64,000 nucleotides of DNA from Candidatus Magasanikiibacteriota bacterium (GCA_030650025.1 JAUSEN010000009.1:93144-157143), one strand, 5' to 3'. Shown: positions 47,616-54,860, counted from the first letter of the stretch. Numbers and translations: made by a program. The notes: generated by a model from the sequence alone, not told the origin.

Positions 47616-47837
47616 TTATAATTTATTAAATTCTTCAATATCCAGACGCATTTCTTTGATAAGTTTGTGCAAGAGGCCAGTCGGAATATCACGTGAATGT
47701 TTGTGAGGCACTGGAATCGTGATTTGTTTTAGCGGATGAAATTAAATAGTATGTTTATTTTTGCGAATTGGAATGTAGCCAGCGCGCTGAATTTTTTTGG
47801 CGAATTCAGTATAGCGTATAGGTTTTAATTTAGGCAA
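47616..47837 (-). pseudogene. hicA: hicA toxin gene interrupted by an in-frame TAA stop at codon 32
   Basis: The N-terminal part (M)PKLKPIRYTEFAKKIQRAGYIPIRKNKHTI matches the HicA N-terminus. After the TAA at 47742-47744 the same frame continues as FHPLKQITIPVPHKHSRDIPTGLLHKLIKEMRLDIEEFNKL, matching the HicA C-terminus. The TTG start overlaps the hicB stop. Confidence 0.65.
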
Positions 47838-48084
47838 AATCCGGTATGCGCACGAAAGAAAATTTTCGAGCTATAGTAGGGGTAATGGTTTCTTGCGGCA
47901 GTGTCTGATTAAAATCTTTAATTACCTCAAGGCACTCTTTAATCGCCGCATAGATATTTTTGTGTGCTACAGTGAGGGTTTTACCATATACCGCACAACC
48001 AGGTATGGCCGGCACGGCAGCAATATAACCGCCTTTTTTATCCCATTCGTACGTTATATAATATTGGTTAGTAGAAGGCTTCAT
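47830..48084 (-). CDS. hicB: HicB-family antitoxin
   Basis: YEWDKKGGYIAAVPAIPGCAVYGKTLTVAHKNIYAAIKECLEV is a typical HicB/UPF0150 sequence. Confidence 0.8.
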   Translation of the reverse strand: MKPSTNQYYITYEWDKKGGYIAAVPAIPGCAVYGKTLTVAHKNIYAAIKECLEVIKDFNQTLPQETITPTIARKFSFVRIPDFA

Positions 48085-48092
48085 ATATCAGC

Positions 48093-48153
48093 AGTATAGA
48101 TAAAAAATATTTGCTTGTCAAATCAAAAATTTGACATGTCAAAAATTTGACAT
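48093..48153 (-). promoter_or_regulatory. hicB promoter TTGACA-17-TATACT with two copies of the operator palindrome ATGTCAAA-N2-TTTGACAT
   Basis: Exact hexamers. The direct repeat caaaaatttgacat occurs twice (48124..48137 and 48140..48153), forming overlapping inverted repeats. Confidence 0.65.
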
Positions 48154-48164
48154 TTTCCTCGTTG

Positions 48165-48248
48165 TGCCGCGGGAGAGAATCGAACTCTCATGACCTTGCG
48201 GTCGCTGGATTTTGAGTCCAGTTCGTCTACCAGTTCCGACACCGCGGC
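48165..48248 (-). tRNA. tRNA-Leu (anticodon CAA)
   Basis: It folds as GCCGCGG/CCGCGGC acceptor, a 3-bp D stem, anticodon arm CTGGA-CTCAAAA-TCCAG, a long variable arm GACCGCAAGGTC and T-arm GAGAG-TTCGATT-CTCTC. The discriminator is A. Confidence 0.85.
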
Positions 48249-48439
48249 CTAAAAACTAGTTTAAATTATAGCAAATCTTCGCTTCTTGTCAACCCTGCAC
48301 CAAGCCCTGTCACATATTTTTAATTTAAAAAAAATTTAGCCGTTAGGCAGTGTTGCTTTATTTGTTTTGTTATAAATAAAATTTAATTTAGGATTTGGTG
48401 CAGGGTCAATCCTGTGATATAATAATGACAGATACAGTT

Positions 48440-49330: not shown

Positions 49331-50182
49331 ATGCCTCTAGGAAAAGGGCTTGGCGCCTTGATTGGCCCGAGTAGCCGCAAAACAACTGTGTTACAAACCG
49401 GTTCGGGCGCCGCGGGTCTGGATAAATTGTGGTTAGTGCCGCTTAGCGAAATCACCGCGAATCCAAATCAACCCCGCAAAAACTTCGCTCCCGCCGAACT
49501 CGAGGAATTAGCCGCGTCTATCAAAGAACACGGCATACTTCAGCCGCTTTTAGTTTCCGAAAAATCCGATGGCGGTTATGAGTTAATTGCCGGCGAGCGG
49601 CGTTTGCGCGCGGCTCGGCGCGCTGGCCTCACCAGTGTCCCCGTTATTGTAAAAAAATATTCAGACGAAACCAAACTCTCCATTTCTTTAATCGAGAATA
49701 TCCAGCGGGCCGATTTAAATCCAATCGAAGAAGCTTTTGCTTACAAGCGCTTGATAGAAGAATTTGGTTTGACCCAAGAAGCGGTGGCGAGTAAAGTCGG
49801 CAAAAGTCGCCCGTCGGTTGCTAACATGATCCGGTTGCTGGAACTGCCGAACGAAGTTCAGCAAGCTTTGATTGACGGCAAAATTTCCACGGGTCAGGCC
49901 CGGGCGGTTTTAAGTATTGGCGACAAAAAAGCCCAGCTCGATATTTTAGCCTCCATGCTCGGCAGTAAAATTACGGTGCGCGAGTTAGAGAGAACCGCGA
50001 CCGCCCAAAATCCCAGCCGGGCGCGCGGGCGGGATCCGAACCTTAATTATCTAGAAGAAAAACTTCGCGCCGCGCTTGGCACCAAAGTAACCATCTCACA
50101 AAAAGGCGAGCGCGGGGCTGTTGTCATCGATTATTTTTCTAAAGAAGAGCTGGCCCGCATCATTAAAAAAATTGCTCCCTAA
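49331..50182 (+). CDS. parB: chromosome partitioning protein ParB/Spo0J
   Basis: ParB box GERRLRAARRAGL plus an HTH. Confidence 0.9.
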   Translation: MPLGKGLGALIGPSSRKTTVLQTGSGAAGLDKLWLVPLSEITANPNQPRKNFAPAELEELAASIKEHGILQPLLVSEKSDGGYELIAGERRLRAARRAGLTSVPVIVKKYSDETKLSISLIENIQRADLNPIEEAFAYKRLIEEFGLTQEAVASKVGKSRPSVANMIRLLELPNEVQQALIDGKISTGQARAVLSIGDKKAQLDILASMLGSKITVRELERTATAQNPSRARGRDPNLNYLEEKLRAALGTKVTISQKGERGAVVIDYFSKEELARIIKKIAP

Positions 50183-51705
50183 ATTCGCTGTTTTCTTTTG
50201 GGCAGGACAAACTTCAGCCAGGAATCATGCTCGGCTGTCTTAAGCGCGTTCTTAATATGATTTCTGGCCAAATGGGTTTTCACAAATTTAATCCAGTCTT
50301 GGCTTGGAGTTTTGCGGTTTTTATCAATAATAATTTCAATAACGTCGCCGCTTTTGAGCGGGGTGCTTAAACTGGCCAGGGAGTCGTTAATTTTAACGCC
50401 ACTGCAACGATTGCCAATTTCGGTATGAATGTGGTAAGCAAAATCAACCGGTGTCGCGTCCTCCGGTAAATCAATCACGTCACCCTTAGGCGTAAACACA
50501 AAAATGCGATTTTTAAAAAAATCAATTTTTAACTGTTCCAGGTCGCCCACATTATTGAGCACTTCTTTTTGAATGGCGGCCAAGTCCTCGGCCCAGCGAA
50601 TATTTTTCGCCGGCTGTTTAATTCCAAATTCATCATAGTGCCAATGCGCCGCCACGCCAAACTCGGCGTCATTATGCATTTCTTGGGTGCGAATTTGAAA
50701 TTCCACAATTTTACCCTCGTCGTAAAACACCGTGGTATGGAGCGACTGATACCCGTTGGGTTTGGGTTGGGCGATGTAGTCTTTAATCCGGCCTTTCAAG
50801 GGGCGCCAGAGTTTGTGAATGATGCCAAGCGTGGCGTAGCAATCGCTCACGTCCTTTAATATAACGCGGAGGGCTATAACGTCATAAACTTTGTCCGAAT
50901 CCCAGCCTTTGCGCAGTAGTTTTTGGTAAAAACTGTAAAGTTGTTTGCGGCGGCCATGCAAGTCTATTAATTTTACTTGCGATTCCTTCAACTCTTTGCG
51001 GAGCATGGTGAGAATTTTTTCAATCAAGGTTTCGCCTTCAGTAAACATCCGGTCTTGGATTTCTTTAACTTTTTGGTATTCTTTCGGGAAGACGTATGGA
51101 AACGACAGGTCTTCGAGCAAGCCGCGAAATTCGCCCATCCCCAGGCGGTTAGCGATGGGCGCGTATATCTCCAAACTCTCTAAGGCAATTCGGTATCGTT
51201 TGTCCTCGGGCAAGGCCGAGAGAGTGGTGAGGTTGTGGACGCGATCCGCGAATTTAATAATCATGACGCGGACATCCTCGGCCATAGCCACGAACATTTT
51301 GCGCAGGTTCTCCATATAGCGCTCCATACCGCGGTATTTTAATTTACCGAGTTTAGTGATGCCGCTCACCATGCCCGCGATATCTTTACCAAAATCTTTT
51401 TCAATTTCTTCGATAGTAACATTAGTATCCTCGGGCACATCATGGAGCAAGGCCGCGGCTACCAGTTGCACATCGAGGCGCATGCCAGCCAGTATGTAAG
51501 CCGCCGCTAGGGGGTGGATAATATAGGGGGCCCCCGAAACTCGCTTTTGCTCGGCATGAGCCGCTTTGGCTGTTTCATAAGCTAACCAAATAAGGTCTAA
51601 ATCCTTATGGGTAGAGTACTTTTTGACCTTTTCAACCAGGTCATTTATGCTTAAATTGTCGGGGATTTTTAGCCTATCAGGCATATTATGCTTTAGTTTA
51701 GTCAT
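50179..51705 (-). CDS. relA: bifunctional (p)ppGpp synthetase/hydrolase Rel (HD, synthetase and TGS domains)
   Basis: HD motif HDVPEDT, synthetase region ...YQSLHTTV and TGS domain. The likely start is MTKLKHNMPD. The track start at 51732 is a TTG inside the promoter palindrome. Confidence 0.85.
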   Translation of the reverse strand: MTKLKHNMPDRLKIPDNLSINDLVEKVKKYSTHKDLDLIWLAYETAKAAHAEQKRVSGAPYIIHPLAAAYILAGMRLDVQLVAAALLHDVPEDTNVTIEEIEKDFGKDIAGMVSGITKLGKLKYRGMERYMENLRKMFVAMAEDVRVMIIKFADRVHNLTTLSALPEDKRYRIALESLEIYAPIANRLGMGEFRGLLEDLSFPYVFPKEYQKVKEIQDRMFTEGETLIEKILTMLRKELKESQVKLIDLHGRRKQLYSFYQKLLRKGWDSDKVYDVIALRVILKDVSDCYATLGIIHKLWRPLKGRIKDYIAQPKPNGYQSLHTTVFYDEGKIVEFQIRTQEMHNDAEFGVAAHWHYDEFGIKQPAKNIRWAEDLAAIQKEVLNNVGDLEQLKIDFFKNRIFVFTPKGDVIDLPEDATPVDFAYHIHTEIGNRCSGVKINDSLASLSTPLKSGDVIEIIIDKNRKTPSQDWIKFVKTHLARNHIKNALKTAEHDSWLKFVLPKRKQRI

Positions 51706-51725
51706 TATTCCAGATCCTGCCCCAC

Positions 51726-51754
51726 TTGACAAGCTGTCAATAGTATGGTATACT
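51726..51754 (+). promoter_or_regulatory. perfect consensus promoter TTGACA-17-TATACT pointing away from relA
   Basis: Exact hexamers. No ORF lies downstream on the plus strand. Confidence 0.6.
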
Positions 51755-51761
51755 CTTCTCG

Positions 51762-52043
51762 TGATTCTAAGACAAAACCTTAACGCGAACTCCCCCCACT
51801 AATCTTTTGAGCAGTGGGGGGTTGTTTTTGTAACTGGCCCGAAAATAACGAGCCCGCTTTAGCGGGCGAAGATATTTTCGTTGGCAGTTACAATCCGCCG
51901 CAGGCGGATACGCTTGCCAAAACAGTCGTTTTATATTAAACTCACCCCTGTAGGCGATGACGGGCCTTAGAATCACCATAGGCATTAAGGACACCCTCAT
52001 CCCTACATTAAGCACCCCTTGGGGCAACCCCAGAGGGGTTTTT
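51762..52043 (+). ncRNA. candidate structured small RNA of about 280 nt, family unknown, possibly 6S-like
   Basis: It is promoter-driven. The 5' segment gtgattctaag pairs perfectly with cttagaatcac about 205 nt downstream to form a closing stem. There are several internal hairpins and it ends in ccccagagggg plus TTTTT. Confidence 0.4.
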
Positions 52044-54261
52044 ATTTATCAGCTATATAACCGCATTCTTTGTCGCTACACTTAACCGTTTGTTTGGCGC
52101 CATAGACCAGAAGTTTGCCGCAATTCGGGCATTTGTCCCCGGTGGGTTTATCCCAGAGCGCGAAAGTGCATTTGGGGTAAGCGTTACAGCCATAAAATAA
52201 TTTACCGCGTTTGCTTTTGCGCGTCACCAAATCACCCTCGCCGCAATCCGGGCATTTGATGTTTAATTTATTTTCAATTCGTTTAATATTTTTGCAATCC
52301 GGGTAACCGCTGCACCCGAGGAATGGCCCAAACCGGCCCACGCGCCTCTGCATGGGTTTACCGCACTTCTCGCATAATTCGTCTGTTAGTTCGGCCGCGC
52401 TCCGTTCCTCGGCTTCTTTGCCAAATGGCTTCGTGTGTTTACAGTCCGGGTAGCCGCTACAAGCCAGAAATTTTCCAAACCGCCCGACTTTAATCACCAT
52501 GGGTTTCTCGCATTTTTCGCATTTCTCATCGGTTTTCTCTTCGGTTAGTTCTTTTTTATTTAACTCCTTGTCTTTTTTAATCAAGTTTTCTTTAAACGGC
52601 TTATAAAAATCCGCGATCACCGGCTGCCATTTTTTTAAACCCTCCGCGATCTCATCTAATTGATTCTCTAGCTCGGCCGTGAATTTGTAGTCCACTATAT
52701 GAGGGAAGTGTTCCACCAGAAGGTCATTGACAATATAGGCGATGTCGCTCGGGAAAAAGCGTTTTTTATCATCGCGTTCAACGTACAGGCGAGCCTCAAT
52801 CGTTGCGATAGTTGGAGCGTAAGTACTGGGGCGGCCAATGCCATATTCTTCAAGCGTTTTCACGAGCGTCGCGTCGCTGTAGCGCGCCGGCGGTTCGGTA
52901 AAATGCTGTTCGGGTTTTAGCTCACTGCAAACCGCCGCTTCGCCGTTCTCTAATTTTGGCAAAGCGTTCTCTTTGGCTTTTTCCGGGTAAAGTTTCAGCC
53001 AGCCGTCAAAAGTAATAACCTGGCCCGTGGCGCGGAAGGTGTAGTCATTACTGCTTTTAATGTCAACGCTCGTGGCATTAAGTTCGGCGGCGGCCATTTG
53101 GGTGGCCAGGGCGCGGTTCCAAATTAAATGGTAAAGCCGATGTTGGTTTTTATTTAAAAATGGTTTCACTTCCTCGGGGGCGCGGCTGGCTTCGGTGGGG
53201 CGCACCGCTTCGTGCGCTTCTTGCGCGGATTTATTTTTATTTTTATAAAAACGGGGAGCCTCGAGCGCGTAATTTTTCCCAAACGAAGTGGTAATAGTGG
53301 CTTTGGCGTCGTCTAAAAATTTTTGCGATAAATTAACCGCGTCCGTGCGCATGTAGGTAATTAAACCAACCTGCCCGCCGCTCCCGAGTTCCACGCCTTC
53401 GTAGAGTTGCTGGGCCAGCATCATGGTTTGTTTGGCCGAGAACCCGAGGCTGTTATTGGCATCTTGCTGTAAACTTGAAGTCGTGTAGGGCGGCGGGGGA
53501 GTGCGGCTGGTTTTCTTTTCTTCTAATTCCGCAATTTTATATTTAACACCAGCCAGGTCTTTAACGATGGCATCTACCTCCGCGGCATTTTTCAAATCCA
53601 TTTTGTCTAGCCTCTTGCCTTTAATCGCCGCGAGTTTAGCCGGGAAAATCTCTGTCTTATTTTTTAAAGTGGAAAATTGCCCCTCAATCGTCCAGTATTC
53701 TTCTTTATTAAAAGCTTTAATTTCGCGCTCGCGCTCTACCACGAGGCGCACCGCCACGCTTTGCACCCGGCCTGCCGACAAACCCCGCGCGACTTTCCGC
53801 CATAAAAACGGGGACATTTCATAACCGACTAGCCGGTCTAAAACGCGCCGCGCTTGCTGGGCGTCCACCAGTTTTAAATCCAGCGCCCGGGGGTGTTCGA
53901 GCGCTTCTGTTAAAGCAGTTTTAGTAATTTCATGAAACGTAATGCGTTTAGCATTCTCTGGTTTAATACCGAGCAGATACGCCAGATGGTAGGAAATGGC
54001 TTCGCCTTCGCGGTCTTGGTCCGACGCGAACAAAATCTCGCCCGCTTTGGCCGCGGCGTCTTTTAGTTCTTTAACGACCTTGATTTTGTCTTTGCTCACA
54101 ACGTACGTGGGCTCGAAACCGTGTTCAATATCGACGCCGATCTTGGACTTGGGCAAATCGCGCACATGCCCGAAAGACGACAAAACGCGGTAGTCTTTAC
54201 CGAGGAATTTTGTAATGGTTTTGGCTTTAGTGGGGGATTCGACGATGACCAAAGTTTTCAT
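52042..54261 (-). CDS. topA: DNA topoisomerase I with C-terminal zinc ribbons
   Basis: A TOPRIM N-terminus, the active-site Tyr region and three Cys4 repeats CEKCGKPM...CSGYPDCK. Confidence 0.95.
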   Translation of the reverse strand: MKTLVIVESPTKAKTITKFLGKDYRVLSSFGHVRDLPKSKIGVDIEHGFEPTYVVSKDKIKVVKELKDAAAKAGEILFASDQDREGEAISYHLAYLLGIKPENAKRITFHEITKTALTEALEHPRALDLKLVDAQQARRVLDRLVGYEMSPFLWRKVARGLSAGRVQSVAVRLVVEREREIKAFNKEEYWTIEGQFSTLKNKTEIFPAKLAAIKGKRLDKMDLKNAAEVDAIVKDLAGVKYKIAELEEKKTSRTPPPPYTTSSLQQDANNSLGFSAKQTMMLAQQLYEGVELGSGGQVGLITYMRTDAVNLSQKFLDDAKATITTSFGKNYALEAPRFYKNKNKSAQEAHEAVRPTEASRAPEEVKPFLNKNQHRLYHLIWNRALATQMAAAELNATSVDIKSSNDYTFRATGQVITFDGWLKLYPEKAKENALPKLENGEAAVCSELKPEQHFTEPPARYSDATLVKTLEEYGIGRPSTYAPTIATIEARLYVERDDKKRFFPSDIAYIVNDLLVEHFPHIVDYKFTAELENQLDEIAEGLKKWQPVIADFYKPFKENLIKKDKELNKKELTEEKTDEKCEKCEKPMVIKVGRFGKFLACSGYPDCKHTKPFGKEAEERSAAELTDELCEKCGKPMQRRVGRFGPFLGCSGYPDCKNIKRIENKLNIKCPDCGEGDLVTRKSKRGKLFYGCNAYPKCTFALWDKPTGDKCPNCGKLLVYGAKQTVKCSDKECGYIADK

Positions 54262-54329: not shown

Positions 54330-54860
54330 ATGCCAGAAGATAATTTTACTGATAAATTAGCTAGAGAAATACTTGGGGGTAGCGGGCAGAAAGACTTGCC
54401 CCCAACACCGGGGAGAGAACCATCGATTGATGCGTTAGCCTTGCAGGTAATGAAGAGAGGGCGTCGGCAAGGAGAGGTGGATAAGGCCGAGGCGCTGGCT
54501 TTGGTATTTGGCGGCAGTAACGAGTTCAGAGAGGTGCAGGAATTGCAAACCAGATTACCTGCAATTGGCGTCGCTGCGGAAGCCATTGCTACTTTGGAAC
54601 GTTACTGGAAAAACGACCCCGAGGTAATGGGTCAAGTTTTGGTTTGGCGGCAAGGGCTAATTAGAGGCGCCGCGGAGCTGCGACAAGCATCACAAAAGAT
54701 TGGCGATACACGAGGATTTTTACAAACATTACAAAATAGAGATTTTGGTGCCGCGGCCGAAACAGCCGCGGTGAGCGCTTTCGAGAGATTTCGTCAAATG
54801 GCTGATGCCATTGCCAAAGCCGCCGCGGGCGAACTCGCTCGTTTGCGGGCTTTGGAGTAA
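54330..54860 (+). CDS. hypothetical protein
   Basis: A 176 aa ORF with no motif. Confidence 0.4.
   Translation: MPEDNFTDKLAREILGGSGQKDLPPTPGREPSIDALALQVMKRGRRQGEVDKAEALALVFGGSNEFREVQELQTRLPAIGVAAEAIATLERYWKNDPEVMGQVLVWRQGLIRGAAELRQASQKIGDTRGFLQTLQNRDFGAAAETAAVSAFERFRQMADAIAKAAAGELARLRALE

What the first reader, a model, noticed from the sequence alone, without database searches (positions are those of the whole stretch)
51726..52043. Promoter-driven structured RNA of about 280 nt between relA and topA with no coding potential
An exact TTGACA-17-TATACT promoter fires into a region with no plausible ORF. The predicted 5' end (gtgattctaag) is perfectly complementary to cttagaatcac 205 nt downstream, forming a closing helix. 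The interior contains at least four G/C hairpins, and the transcript ends at an intrinsic terminator (ccccagagggg plus TTTTT) that overlaps the topA stop on the other strand. A closing stem, internal bubbles and a size near 200-280 nt fit a 6S-type or otherwise uncharacterised regulatory RNA. I found no tmRNA, RNase P or SRP sequence motifs.
Basis: partly seen in the sequence, partly recalled or inferred. Interest (0 to 1): 0.55.

Follow-up and report, generated by a model that had tools for sequence, protein, structure and literature searches.

The report
Two paired small RNA genes beside relA
The gap between topA and relA in this Patescibacteria genome most likely holds two small non-coding RNA genes in tandem, not one 280-nt RNA. 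The first RNA's 5' end is complementary to the hairpin of the second; no function is known.

Summary
Nothing matches Rfam.

Among about 12 distinct syntenic topA-relA loci from related Patescibacteria, the element is present in 4 besides the window, a deletion remnant in 1, and absent in the rest, including the closest relative.

The conserved parts suggest two units rather than one long RNA:
- **RNA1** (about 70 nt, 51761-51831) has a near-consensus promoter P1 in 5 of 5 loci. Its terminator-like hairpin T1 has 7 of 12 pairs with compensatory changes.
- **RNA2** (about 95 nt, 51950-52045) has its own promoter P2 in 4 of 4 loci. It is a 57-nt hairpin (4 of 10 basal pairs compensatory) followed by terminator T2.
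- The spacer between them is not conserved.

It joins the RNA1 5' end to the 5' arm of the RNA2 hairpin and competes with that hairpin.

P1 lies back to back with the relA promoter and shares its -35 box.

The 6S-type reading is not supported. This is a candidate new small RNA family. Its function is unknown, it is seen in only five loci, and no expression data exist.

The parts
51726..51754 (+). Promoter P1: -35 TTGACA (51726-31), 17-nt spacer, TG-extended -10 TATACT (51749-54). The predicted +1 is G51761.
   Evidence: for the window. The same layout is found in L021, L022, L024 and L031: perfect -35, 17-nt spacer, TG, and 6 nt to GTGAT.
51761..51831 (+). RNA1, a candidate small RNA of about 70 nt. 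The 5' conserved block GUGAUUCUAAG-N6-CCUUAACGCGAAC comes first. Then comes hairpin T1 (stems 51792-51800 and 51813-51821) with U-tract UUGUUUUUGU (51822-31).
   Evidence: Alignment A4 of 5 loci. T1 has 12 pairs, 98% paired, 7 with compensatory changes, and 0 of 500 shuffles reach that score. One-nt indels in the 5' block break any reading frame.
51761..51771 (+). Element A: the 5'-terminal 11 nt of RNA1, complementary to A' inside RNA2.
   Evidence: The complementarity starts exactly at the predicted +1 in all 4 loci that have both RNAs.
51832..51913 (+). Non-conserved spacer with two strong hairpins. One spans 51828-51893 with apex GCCCGC-TTTA-GCGGGC at 51852-67. The other is ATCCGCC-GCA-GGCGGAT at 51893-51909.
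   Evidence: The spacers of L021, L022 and L031 cannot be aligned with it.
51914..51942 (+). Promoter P2: -35 TTGCCA (51914-19), 17-nt spacer, -10 TAAACT (51937-42), then 7 nt to G51950.
   Evidence: 9 of 12 matches. The homologous positions are TTGATT-17-TGcTATACT-7-GTAGG in L021 and TTGATT-17-TGtTATCAT-7-GTAGG in L031. L022 has TTGCTT-17-TGgTATACT-7-GTAGG, read directly, with a -35 too weak for the scan.
51950..52045 (+). RNA2, a candidate small RNA of about 95 nt. It is a 57-nt hairpin (51950-52006), then the linker AUUAAG, then terminator T2 (about 52014-52043). The T2 U-tract overlaps the topA stop codon.
   Evidence: Alignment A5 of 4 loci. The basal stem has 10 pairs, 97.5% paired, 4 with compensatory changes. 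Each homologue folds to the same hairpin at -20 to -21.5 kcal/mol. T2 is flagged.
51966..51976 (+). Element A' in the 5' arm of the RNA2 hairpin, the complement of the RNA1 5' end.
   Evidence: One search gives a duplex of -21.9 kcal/mol against a shuffle mean of -10.4, with 0 of 500 shuffles as good.
51704..51732 (-). relA promoter: -35 TTGTCA (51732-27), 17-nt spacer, -10 AATAAT (51709-04). Its -35 occupies the same base pairs as the P1 -35, offset by 1 nt on the opposite strand.
   Evidence: The same back-to-back layout is found in L021, L022, L024 and L031.

Best explanation
The topA-relA spacer carries a lineage-restricted, non-coding module of two tandem small RNA genes on the + strand.

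**RNA1.** It is fired by a near-consensus extended -10 promoter (P1). It starts at G51761 and ends about 70 nt later at an intrinsic-terminator-type hairpin (T1).

**RNA2.** It is fired by its own weaker promoter (P2). It starts at G51950, folds into a 57-nt hairpin, and ends at T2. T2 is a terminator shared head-on with topA.

**Pairing.** The first 11-12 nt of RNA1, and less regularly about 26 nt, are antisense to the 5' arm of the RNA2 hairpin. RNA1 could therefore invade and open RNA2. Equivalently, RNA2 could sequester the RNA1 5' seed. This would be a small RNA / anti-small-RNA pair, or a two-state switch.

**Link to relA.** P1 and the relA promoter are back to back and use the same -35 base pairs. 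Occupancy of one should exclude the other, so the module is probably also wired into relA transcription.

**Shown and inferred.** Shown in silico: the promoters, the hairpins and their covariation, the complementarity and its covariation, the absence of coding potential, and the patchy orthologous distribution. Inferred: transcription itself, the transcript ends, pairing in vivo, promoter competition, and any biological role.
For: **Source and synteny.** The window comes from a Candidatus Magasanikbacteria genome assembled from a metagenome. The order topA, relA, parB, parA is conserved in relatives.

**Distribution.** The element is present in the window, L021, L022, L031 and L024. In L024 only RNA1 is seen because the contig ends. 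RelA identity between the window and these four is only 70-72%.

**P1.**
- It has a perfect -35 and a 17-nt spacer.
- It has TG plus TATACT, TATTAT, TATAAT or TAACAT as the -10.
- It lies 6 nt from GTGAT, in 5 of 5 loci.

**T1.** 12 pairs are 98.3% paired and 7 have changes on both sides. 0 of 500 shuffles reach that score, and slid controls are at most 55% paired. A YUGUUUU tail follows in 5 of 5 loci.

**P2.** The spacing is fixed at 17 nt plus 7 nt to GTAGG in 4 of 4 loci, inside sequence that otherwise cannot be aligned.

**RNA2 stem.** 10 pairs are 97.5% paired and 4 are compensatory.

**RNA1:RNA2 helix.**
- 12 pairs are 97.9% paired, 2 are compensatory, and none changes on one side only. 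There are three haplotypes: UUC/GAA, UAU/AUA and UAC/GUA.
- Duplex energies are -21.9 to -28.5 kcal/mol, against shuffle means of -10 to -13. At most 1 of 500 shuffles does as well.
- The window's and L031's RNA1 pair best with the RNA2 of their own locus.
- The complementarity begins exactly at the predicted +1.

**No conserved ORF.** The leaderless GUG frame runs 7 to more than 25 codons and is broken by 1-nt indels. L022 has no ORF of 30 aa or more in the element.

**Remnant.** L019/L020 keep the P1 -35 box (the -10 is degraded) fused to the RNA2 loop, 3' arm and T2. This points to descent with loss rather than insertion.
Against: - There is no expression evidence of any kind.
- Only 5 loci are known, and only 4 have both RNAs, so the covariation statistics are thin. 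The tool's own caveat is that related sequences can beat shuffles without any structure.
- The simple terminator scan flags T1 only in L021. The others have long loops or a bulge.
- P2 matches only 9 of 12 positions, and its -35 in L022 is 3 of 6.
- The extended part of the RNA1:RNA2 duplex (helix 2) is only 71% paired and is not conserved in register.
- The element is missing from the closest relative (79% RelA identity, L017) and from most syntenic loci, so it is dispensable.
- A DNA-level explanation predicts the same coupled changes at A and A'. Examples are three copies of a roughly 27-bp repeat kept alike by gene conversion, or sites bound by one protein.
- No target other than RNA2 was found.
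Confidence: 0.55

Rival explanations
1. One RNA of about 285 nt runs from P1 to T2. It is closed by the 5'-end/A' helix, whether 6S-like or another large structured RNA. On this view T1 is a structural hairpin and P2 is incidental.
For: - The closing helix is conserved and covaries.
- In full-length folds its probability is 0.98 in L021, 0.36 in L022, 0.22 in the window and 0.05 in L031. Forcing it costs at most 2.6 kcal/mol.
- The fold has a strong z-score.
- Read-through of T1 cannot be excluded.
Against: - T1 always carries a U-tract, and P2 keeps exact spacing in 4 of 4 loci.
- The roughly 100-nt interior is not conserved in sequence or shape.
- No 6S, RNase P, SRP or tmRNA match was found.
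- The structure is multi-branched with no central bubble.
- The helix competes with the covarying RNA2 hairpin.
Confidence: 0.2
2. The conserved blocks act as DNA rather than RNA. They would be about three copies of a 27-bp repeat: the RNA1 5' block, the RNA2 5' arm inverted, and the RNA2 3' arm. These would serve as protein-binding sites or cruciform-forming sequence regulating relA or insulating topA from relA. The hairpins would then be ordinary terminators.
For: - The repeats lie next to the relA promoter. The -35 region CTTGACAAG is near-palindromic even in loci without the element.
- Coupled changes at A and A' would also arise from co-evolution with one binding protein, or from gene conversion.
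- Both strands fold equally well.
- The L019 deletion looks like recombination between the direct copies.
Against: - The repeat boundary coincides exactly with the predicted +1 of a consensus promoter in all loci.
- The RNA2 hairpin base coincides with the +1 of P2.
- T1 is oriented: its U-tract is on the + strand only.
- The RNA2 3' arm tolerates mismatches and wobbles where RNA1 stays perfectly complementary. This fits RNA pairing better than a shared DNA motif.
Confidence: 0.12
3. The element is a decaying or mobile insertion, a MITE-like element with 11-nt terminal inverted repeats, and has no function of its own.
For: - Inverted repeats flank about 200 bp.
- The distribution among close relatives is patchy.
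- One remnant exists (L019).
Against: - There are no other copies in the 64-kb window or in 32 loci.
- Nothing matches in phage, plasmid or viral collections.
- The element always sits at the same orthologous site, in genomes whose RelA is only about 71% identical.
- Conservation extends beyond the supposed terminal repeats on both sides (promoter and T2), and the stems show compensatory changes.
Confidence: 0.05
4. The region is a small-protein or type I toxin-antitoxin locus, with RNA1 as the antitoxin and RNA2 as a toxin mRNA.
For: - Two adjacent small transcripts share about 20 nt of complementarity, which resembles tisB/istR-1 or zor/orz (from general knowledge).
- ORFs of 42 aa (+) and 86 aa (-) exist in the window.
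Against: - No ORF is conserved. The RNA2 frame has no AUG in L021 and hits stops after 5-11 codons in L031 and L022.
- L022 has no ORF of 30 aa or more.
- Pfam finds nothing.
Confidence: 0.03

Closest known systems
6S RNA (SsrS; Rfam RF00013 and related 6S models)
   Same: It is a promoter-driven, non-coding, highly structured RNA with no downstream gene. Its 5' end is complementary to a distal segment.
   Different: - No 6S model matches even at E<=10.
- The fold is not a single rod with a central bubble.
- The interior is not conserved.
- There is an internal conserved terminator and a second promoter.
- The element is dispensable among close relatives.
Small RNA / anti-small-RNA (sponge) pairs such as GcvB-SroC or the prophage AgvB/AsxR anti-sRNAs (from general knowledge)
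   Same: Two small terminator-ended transcripts are involved. One carries a 5'-terminal seed and the other offers an extended complementary site. The predicted duplex is at least as stable as the partner's own fold.
   Different: - Both partners are encoded side by side as one conserved module.
- The sponge site is locked inside a hairpin.
- No mRNA target is known, and no chaperone has been looked for.
- The organism belongs to the Patescibacteria.
Tandem small RNA loci with a read-through product (PrrF1-PrrF2/PrrH of Pseudomonas aeruginosa; from general knowledge)
   Same: Two promoter-terminator units lie in tandem. Read-through of the first terminator would give a longer RNA containing both.
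   Different: PrrF1 and PrrF2 are near-identical direct duplicates. Here the two RNAs are mutually complementary and differ in architecture.
Type I toxin-antitoxin loci with a neighbouring, non-overlapping antitoxin RNA (tisB/istR-1, zor/orz, shoB/ohsC; from general knowledge)
   Same: Adjacent small transcription units share about 20 nt of complementarity, and the regulator pairs through its 5' end.
   Different: There is no conserved toxin ORF.
Antisense control RNAs that attack a target hairpin (CopA/CopT of plasmid R1, RNA I/RNA II of ColE1; from general knowledge)
   Same: An antisense RNA pairs with one arm of a stable stem-loop and must displace the other arm.
   Different: Those pairs are transcribed from opposite strands of the same DNA on plasmids. 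Here the partners are tandem, non-overlapping and chromosomal.

Membership tests
6S RNA | Match to a 6S covariance model | tested here: not met
   There is no 6S family among matches up to E=10 on 51500-52300, and none at gathering score on the whole window. None appears in L021, L024 or L031 either.
6S RNA | A single extended hairpin with closing stem, large central bubble and terminal stem, conserved among relatives | tested here: not met
   The minimum-energy fold is multi-branched with several independent hairpins. The central roughly 100 nt is not conserved between loci.
6S RNA | Binds the RNA polymerase holoenzyme and templates product RNAs | not testable with these tools
   This needs biochemistry.
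tmRNA / RNase P RNA / SRP RNA | Match to a covariance model or an ARAGORN call | tested here: not met
   The only tmRNA match scores 8.3 bits against a gathering score of 47.
Independent bacterial small RNA gene (own promoter to intrinsic terminator) | Conserved promoter at a fixed distance from the conserved RNA 5' end | tested here: met
   P1 is found in 5 of 5 loci. P2 is found in 4 of 4, three by scan and L022 read directly from the sequence.
Independent bacterial small RNA gene (own promoter to intrinsic terminator) | Terminator hairpin with a U-tract, maintained by compensatory changes | tested here: met
   T1 has 7 of 12 pairs compensatory and is 98% paired, with a YUGUUUU tail. T2 is flagged. 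The strict scan flags T1 only in L021.
Independent bacterial small RNA gene (own promoter to intrinsic terminator) | No conserved reading frame | tested here: met
Independent bacterial small RNA gene (own promoter to intrinsic terminator) | Detected as a discrete transcript | not testable with these tools
Small RNA / anti-small-RNA pair | Extended complementarity kept by compensatory change | tested here: met
   The core helix has 12 pairs, 97.9% paired, 2 compensatory and 0 single-sided changes. Duplex energies are far below shuffles. Only 4 sequences were available.
Small RNA / anti-small-RNA pair | The two RNAs are separate molecules that interact in vivo | not testable with these tools
   This is inferred from P2 and T1 only. 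Pairing in cis within a read-through transcript is energetically equivalent.
Type I toxin-antitoxin | Conserved small (hydrophobic) toxin ORF on the target RNA | tested here: not met
Riboswitch / transcription attenuator | A regulated gene downstream on the same strand | tested here: not met
   Downstream on the + strand there is only RNA2 and then the convergent topA.
MITE / mobile element | Multiple copies at unrelated sites | tested here: not met
   There are no further copies in the window or in 32 loci, and none in viral, phage or plasmid collections. Whole genomes could not be scanned.

The most novel reading that the evidence does not exclude
The module is a stringent-response circuit specific to a Patescibacteria lineage.

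- Both small RNA promoters initiate with G in every locus.
- P1 shares its -35 base pairs with the relA promoter.
- Small RNA output and relA transcription would therefore be mutually exclusive. They might respond to the GTP pool that (p)ppGpp synthesis controls, by analogy with +1G promoters in Firmicutes (from general knowledge).
- The RNA1/RNA2 pairing would add a post-transcriptional toggle.

If true, this would be the first regulatory RNA circuit described in these ultra-small bacteria.
Probability: 0.08. Interest if true: 0.7.

Novelty: new member of a known kind. Interest (0 to 1): 0.4.

Why it matters
I know of no regulatory RNA described in Patescibacteria (Candidate Phyla Radiation), and two literature searches found none. 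These are uncultivated bacteria with tiny genomes and very short intergenic regions. A roughly 310-nt spacer kept for non-coding transcripts next to the only (p)ppGpp synthetase/hydrolase gene seen in this window is therefore notable.

If the two RNAs are real and pair as predicted, they offer a compact natural example of a small RNA with a hairpin-caged partner. They also offer a back-to-back promoter arrangement that could couple small RNA synthesis to relA expression.

The practical value now is modest. This is a well-delimited candidate family: two covariance-model-ready alignments with defined ends. It can be searched across metagenomes and metatranscriptomes.

Tried and rejected
- **Rfam.** Searches at gathering and permissive thresholds on the window and on homologous loci gave nothing relevant. 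The sub-threshold hits (SSRC34_2, STnc490, miRNAs) are generic hairpin matches.
- **ARAGORN.** It found only tRNA-Asn and tRNA-Leu elsewhere in the window.
- **Repeat element.** No other copy was found by BLAST, regex or nhmmer in the window or in 32 loci.
- **Shared hairpin family.** GCCCGC-N4-GCGGGC occurs twice in the window, which is no more than chance.
- **Genome and metagenome scans with RelA.**
  - The genome-contig scan gave only non-syntenic relatives of 59% identity or less.
  - The metagenome-contig scan gave one syntenic locus, L010, whose spacer is not homologous apart from the relA -10 box.
- **Other collections.** DNA-pattern scans of viral contigs gave 0 hits. Searches of the phage and plasmid collections gave no match.
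- **Coding potential.**
  - The 86-aa ORF on the - strand, the 41-, 42- and 59-aa ORFs on the + strand, and the leaderless GUG frame are not conserved.
  - The 176-aa ORF upstream of topA (54330-54860) was compared with the 176- and 180-aa ORFs that sit between topA and relA in L025 and L022. There is no similarity.
- **Second RelA search.** A search with P0006 added no new close relatives.
- **Literature.** Searches for small RNAs or RNA motifs in Patescibacteria or the Candidate Phyla Radiation found nothing related. The TIGR-Tas paper surfaced, but there is no guide-RNA array here and no RNA-guided effector gene among the neighbours scanned with Pfam.

Full report
**1. What is in the sequence**

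- A TTGACA-17-TATACT promoter with a TG extended -10 sits at 51726-51754 on the + strand.
- Seven bases after it, GTGATTCTAAG (51761-71) is perfectly complementary to CTTAGAATCAC (51966-76).
- The interval folds far better than shuffles: z = -8.5 on the + strand and z = -7.0 on the - strand.
- It ends in CCCC-AGA-GGGG plus TTTTT, and this T-run overlaps the topA stop codon at 52042-44.
- The flanking genes are a RelA/SpoT protein (50179-51684) and TopA (52042-54261), both on the - strand.
- Nothing in Rfam 15 matches, ARAGORN finds no tmRNA, and no ORF has a Pfam hit.
- An 11-nt perfect inverted repeat arises in 1.5% of shuffles of the region, so on its own it is only suggestive.
- In the window's full-length fold the closing helix is not in the minimum-energy structure. 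Its probability is 0.22 and forcing it costs 0.7 kcal/mol.

**2. Where the window comes from, and the relatives**

The RelA protein is identical to one from a Candidatus Magasanikbacteria (Patescibacteria) genome assembled from a metagenome. The gene order topA, relA, parB, parA is conserved in relatives, so the spacer could be compared at an orthologous site.

- **Absent.** About a dozen distinct syntenic loci were retrieved. Most have a spacer of only 76-116 nt holding a terminator and the relA promoter. These include L017, the closest relative at 79% RelA identity.
- **Present.** L021, L022 and L031 carry the whole element, and L024 carries its first half before the contig ends. Their RelA proteins are 70-72% identical to the window's.
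- **Remnant.** L019/L020 keep the P1 -35 box, with a degraded -10, fused to the distal half of the second conserved block and its terminator.

The element is therefore old in this clade, always at the same site, and repeatedly lost.

**3. Anatomy shown by the comparison**

Conservation falls into two blocks separated by sequence that cannot be aligned.

*Block 1 (RNA1).*
- P1 has a perfect TTGACA, a 17-nt spacer, TG plus a good -10 and then 6 nt, in 5 of 5 loci.
- GTGAT(A/T)(T/C)TAAG(G), a short variable loop and CCTTAACGC(C/G)AAC follow.
- A GC-rich hairpin comes next. Its sequence differs in every locus but its position is fixed, and YUGUUUU follows it.
- On alignment A4 this hairpin (T1) has 12 pairs, 98.3% paired, and 7 have changes on both sides. 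No shuffle reaches that score, and slid controls are at most 55% paired.
- This is the signature of an intrinsic terminator on the + strand about 70 nt after the start.

*Block 2 (RNA2).*
- A second promoter-like site has exact geometry in 4 of 4 loci: TTGCCA, TTGATT, TTGCTT or TTGATT, then 17 nt, then TAAACT, TATACT, TATACT or TATCAT, then 7 nt.
- Three of the four have a TG extension.
- GTAGG follows, which is the first base of a 57-59-nt hairpin.
- The basal stem of this hairpin has 4 of 10 pairs with compensatory changes and is 97.5% paired.
- A short AUUAAA linker and terminator T2 complete the block.

They have no counterpart elsewhere.

**4. The complementarity is real, and what it connects**

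- The RNA1 5' end pairs with a segment in the 5' arm of the RNA2 hairpin. Across the four loci with both blocks there are three haplotypes:
  - GUGAUUCUAAG / CUUAGAAUCAC
  - GUGAUAUUAAGG / CCUUAAUAUCAC
  - GUGAUACUAAGG / CCUUAGUAUCAC
- This gives 12 pairs that are 97.9% paired. Two pairs have compensatory changes and none changes on one side only.
- The pairing starts exactly at the predicted +1 of P1 in every locus. The flanking discriminator is not complementary.
- RNAduplex extends the interaction irregularly to about 26 nt. Energies are -21.9 to -28.5 kcal/mol, against shuffle means of -10 to -13 and RNA2's own hairpin at -20 to -21.5. The window's and L031's RNA1 prefer the RNA2 of their own locus.
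- The extension is not conserved in register (71% paired).
- The hairpin and the RNA1:RNA2 duplex use the same nucleotides, so they are alternatives.
- In a hypothetical read-through transcript the two states are nearly iso-energetic. Helix probability ranges from 0.05 to 0.98 depending on the locus.

**5. Coding potential**

There is none that is conserved.
- The conserved 5' block carries 1-nt indels.
- The leaderless GUG frame gives 7 to more than 25 codons.
- The RNA2 frame is stopped early in L022 and L031.
- L022 has no ORF of 30 aa or more in the element.
- The 86-aa ORF on the - strand matches only across the nucleotide-conserved hairpin.

**6. Relation to relA**

- The relA promoter is TTGTCA-17-AATAAT at 51732-51704 on the - strand.
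- Its -35 occupies the same base pairs as the P1 -35, offset by one on the other strand.
- This holds in all five element-bearing loci.
- Simultaneous occupancy by two polymerases is therefore unlikely. That is an inference from promoter geometry.
- Both P1 and P2 start with G in every locus. This is an observation, and any link to GTP sensing is speculation.

**7. Interpretation**

- **Best-supported reading (confidence about 0.55).** There are two tandem small RNA genes whose products pair. RNA1 is a short RNA with a 5' seed and a terminator. RNA2 is a hairpin RNA whose 5' arm is the RNA1 target, or equivalently a caged sponge for RNA1.
- **Single long RNA (about 0.2).** The conserved internal terminator and promoter and the unconserved interior argue against it as the primary product. 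It fails every testable 6S criterion.
- **DNA-level repeat or binding-site explanation (about 0.12).** This cannot be excluded with four sequences. However, it does not explain why the repeats begin at the predicted transcription starts, or why T1 is oriented.
- **Mobile element or small protein.** Both are unlikely.

**8. Limits**

- There are no expression data.
- Only five loci are known.
- The collection-wide DNA scans that would have widened the family were exhausted on protein-anchored searches.
- No target beyond RNA2 is known, and the function is unknown.

**9. Verdict**

This is a real, conserved, unannotated non-coding module. It is most likely a new small RNA pair in a Patescibacteria lineage, not a 6S-type RNA. 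Interest is moderate: 0.40.

Noticed in passing
window 47616-48121 (- strand): A HicB-like antitoxin gene (84 aa, 47830-48084, PF15919 E=4e-6) sits behind a near-consensus promoter at 48121. The HicA-like frame after it is interrupted by an in-frame TAA, leaving two 31-aa ORFs at 47742-47837 and 47616-47711. It is probably a decayed toxin gene.
   Followed up: partly
window 48164-48292 (- strand): tRNA-Leu(CAA) is preceded by a perfect TTGACA-16-TATAAT promoter with TG. This suggests that consensus sigma-70-type promoters drive stable RNA genes in this genome, which fits P1 driving an RNA gene.
   Followed up: no
window 51724-51734; also L019, L025, L030: The relA -35 region reads CTTGACAAG / CTTGTCAAG, a near-palindrome that gives a -35 hexamer on both strands. 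It is also present in syntenic loci that lack the RNA module. It could be a leftover of the divergent promoter or a regulator's binding site.
   Followed up: partly
L019/L020 3340-3500: This is a deletion derivative of the module. A P1-like promoter (TTGACA, with a degraded -10) is fused directly to the loop, 3' arm and terminator of RNA2. This is what recombination between the similar RNA1 5' block and the RNA2 3' arm would produce.
   Followed up: partly
L031 1-203: A 56-nt, 98% inverted repeat lies at the contig end, inside the topA 3' region. It is probably an assembly artefact. It produces spurious plant-miRNA matches in Rfam.
   Followed up: partly
L022 2655-3197 and L025 892-1422: In two relatives an extra ORF of 176-180 aa with no Pfam domain on record lies between topA and relA. 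Neither is similar to the window's 176-aa ORF at 54330-54860, which also has no Pfam hit.
   Followed up: partly
window 1-64000: Most genes run on the - strand up to about 15 kb and on the + strand from about 15 to 47 kb. This divergence resembles the layout around a replication origin near 15 kb. It was not examined.
   Followed up: no
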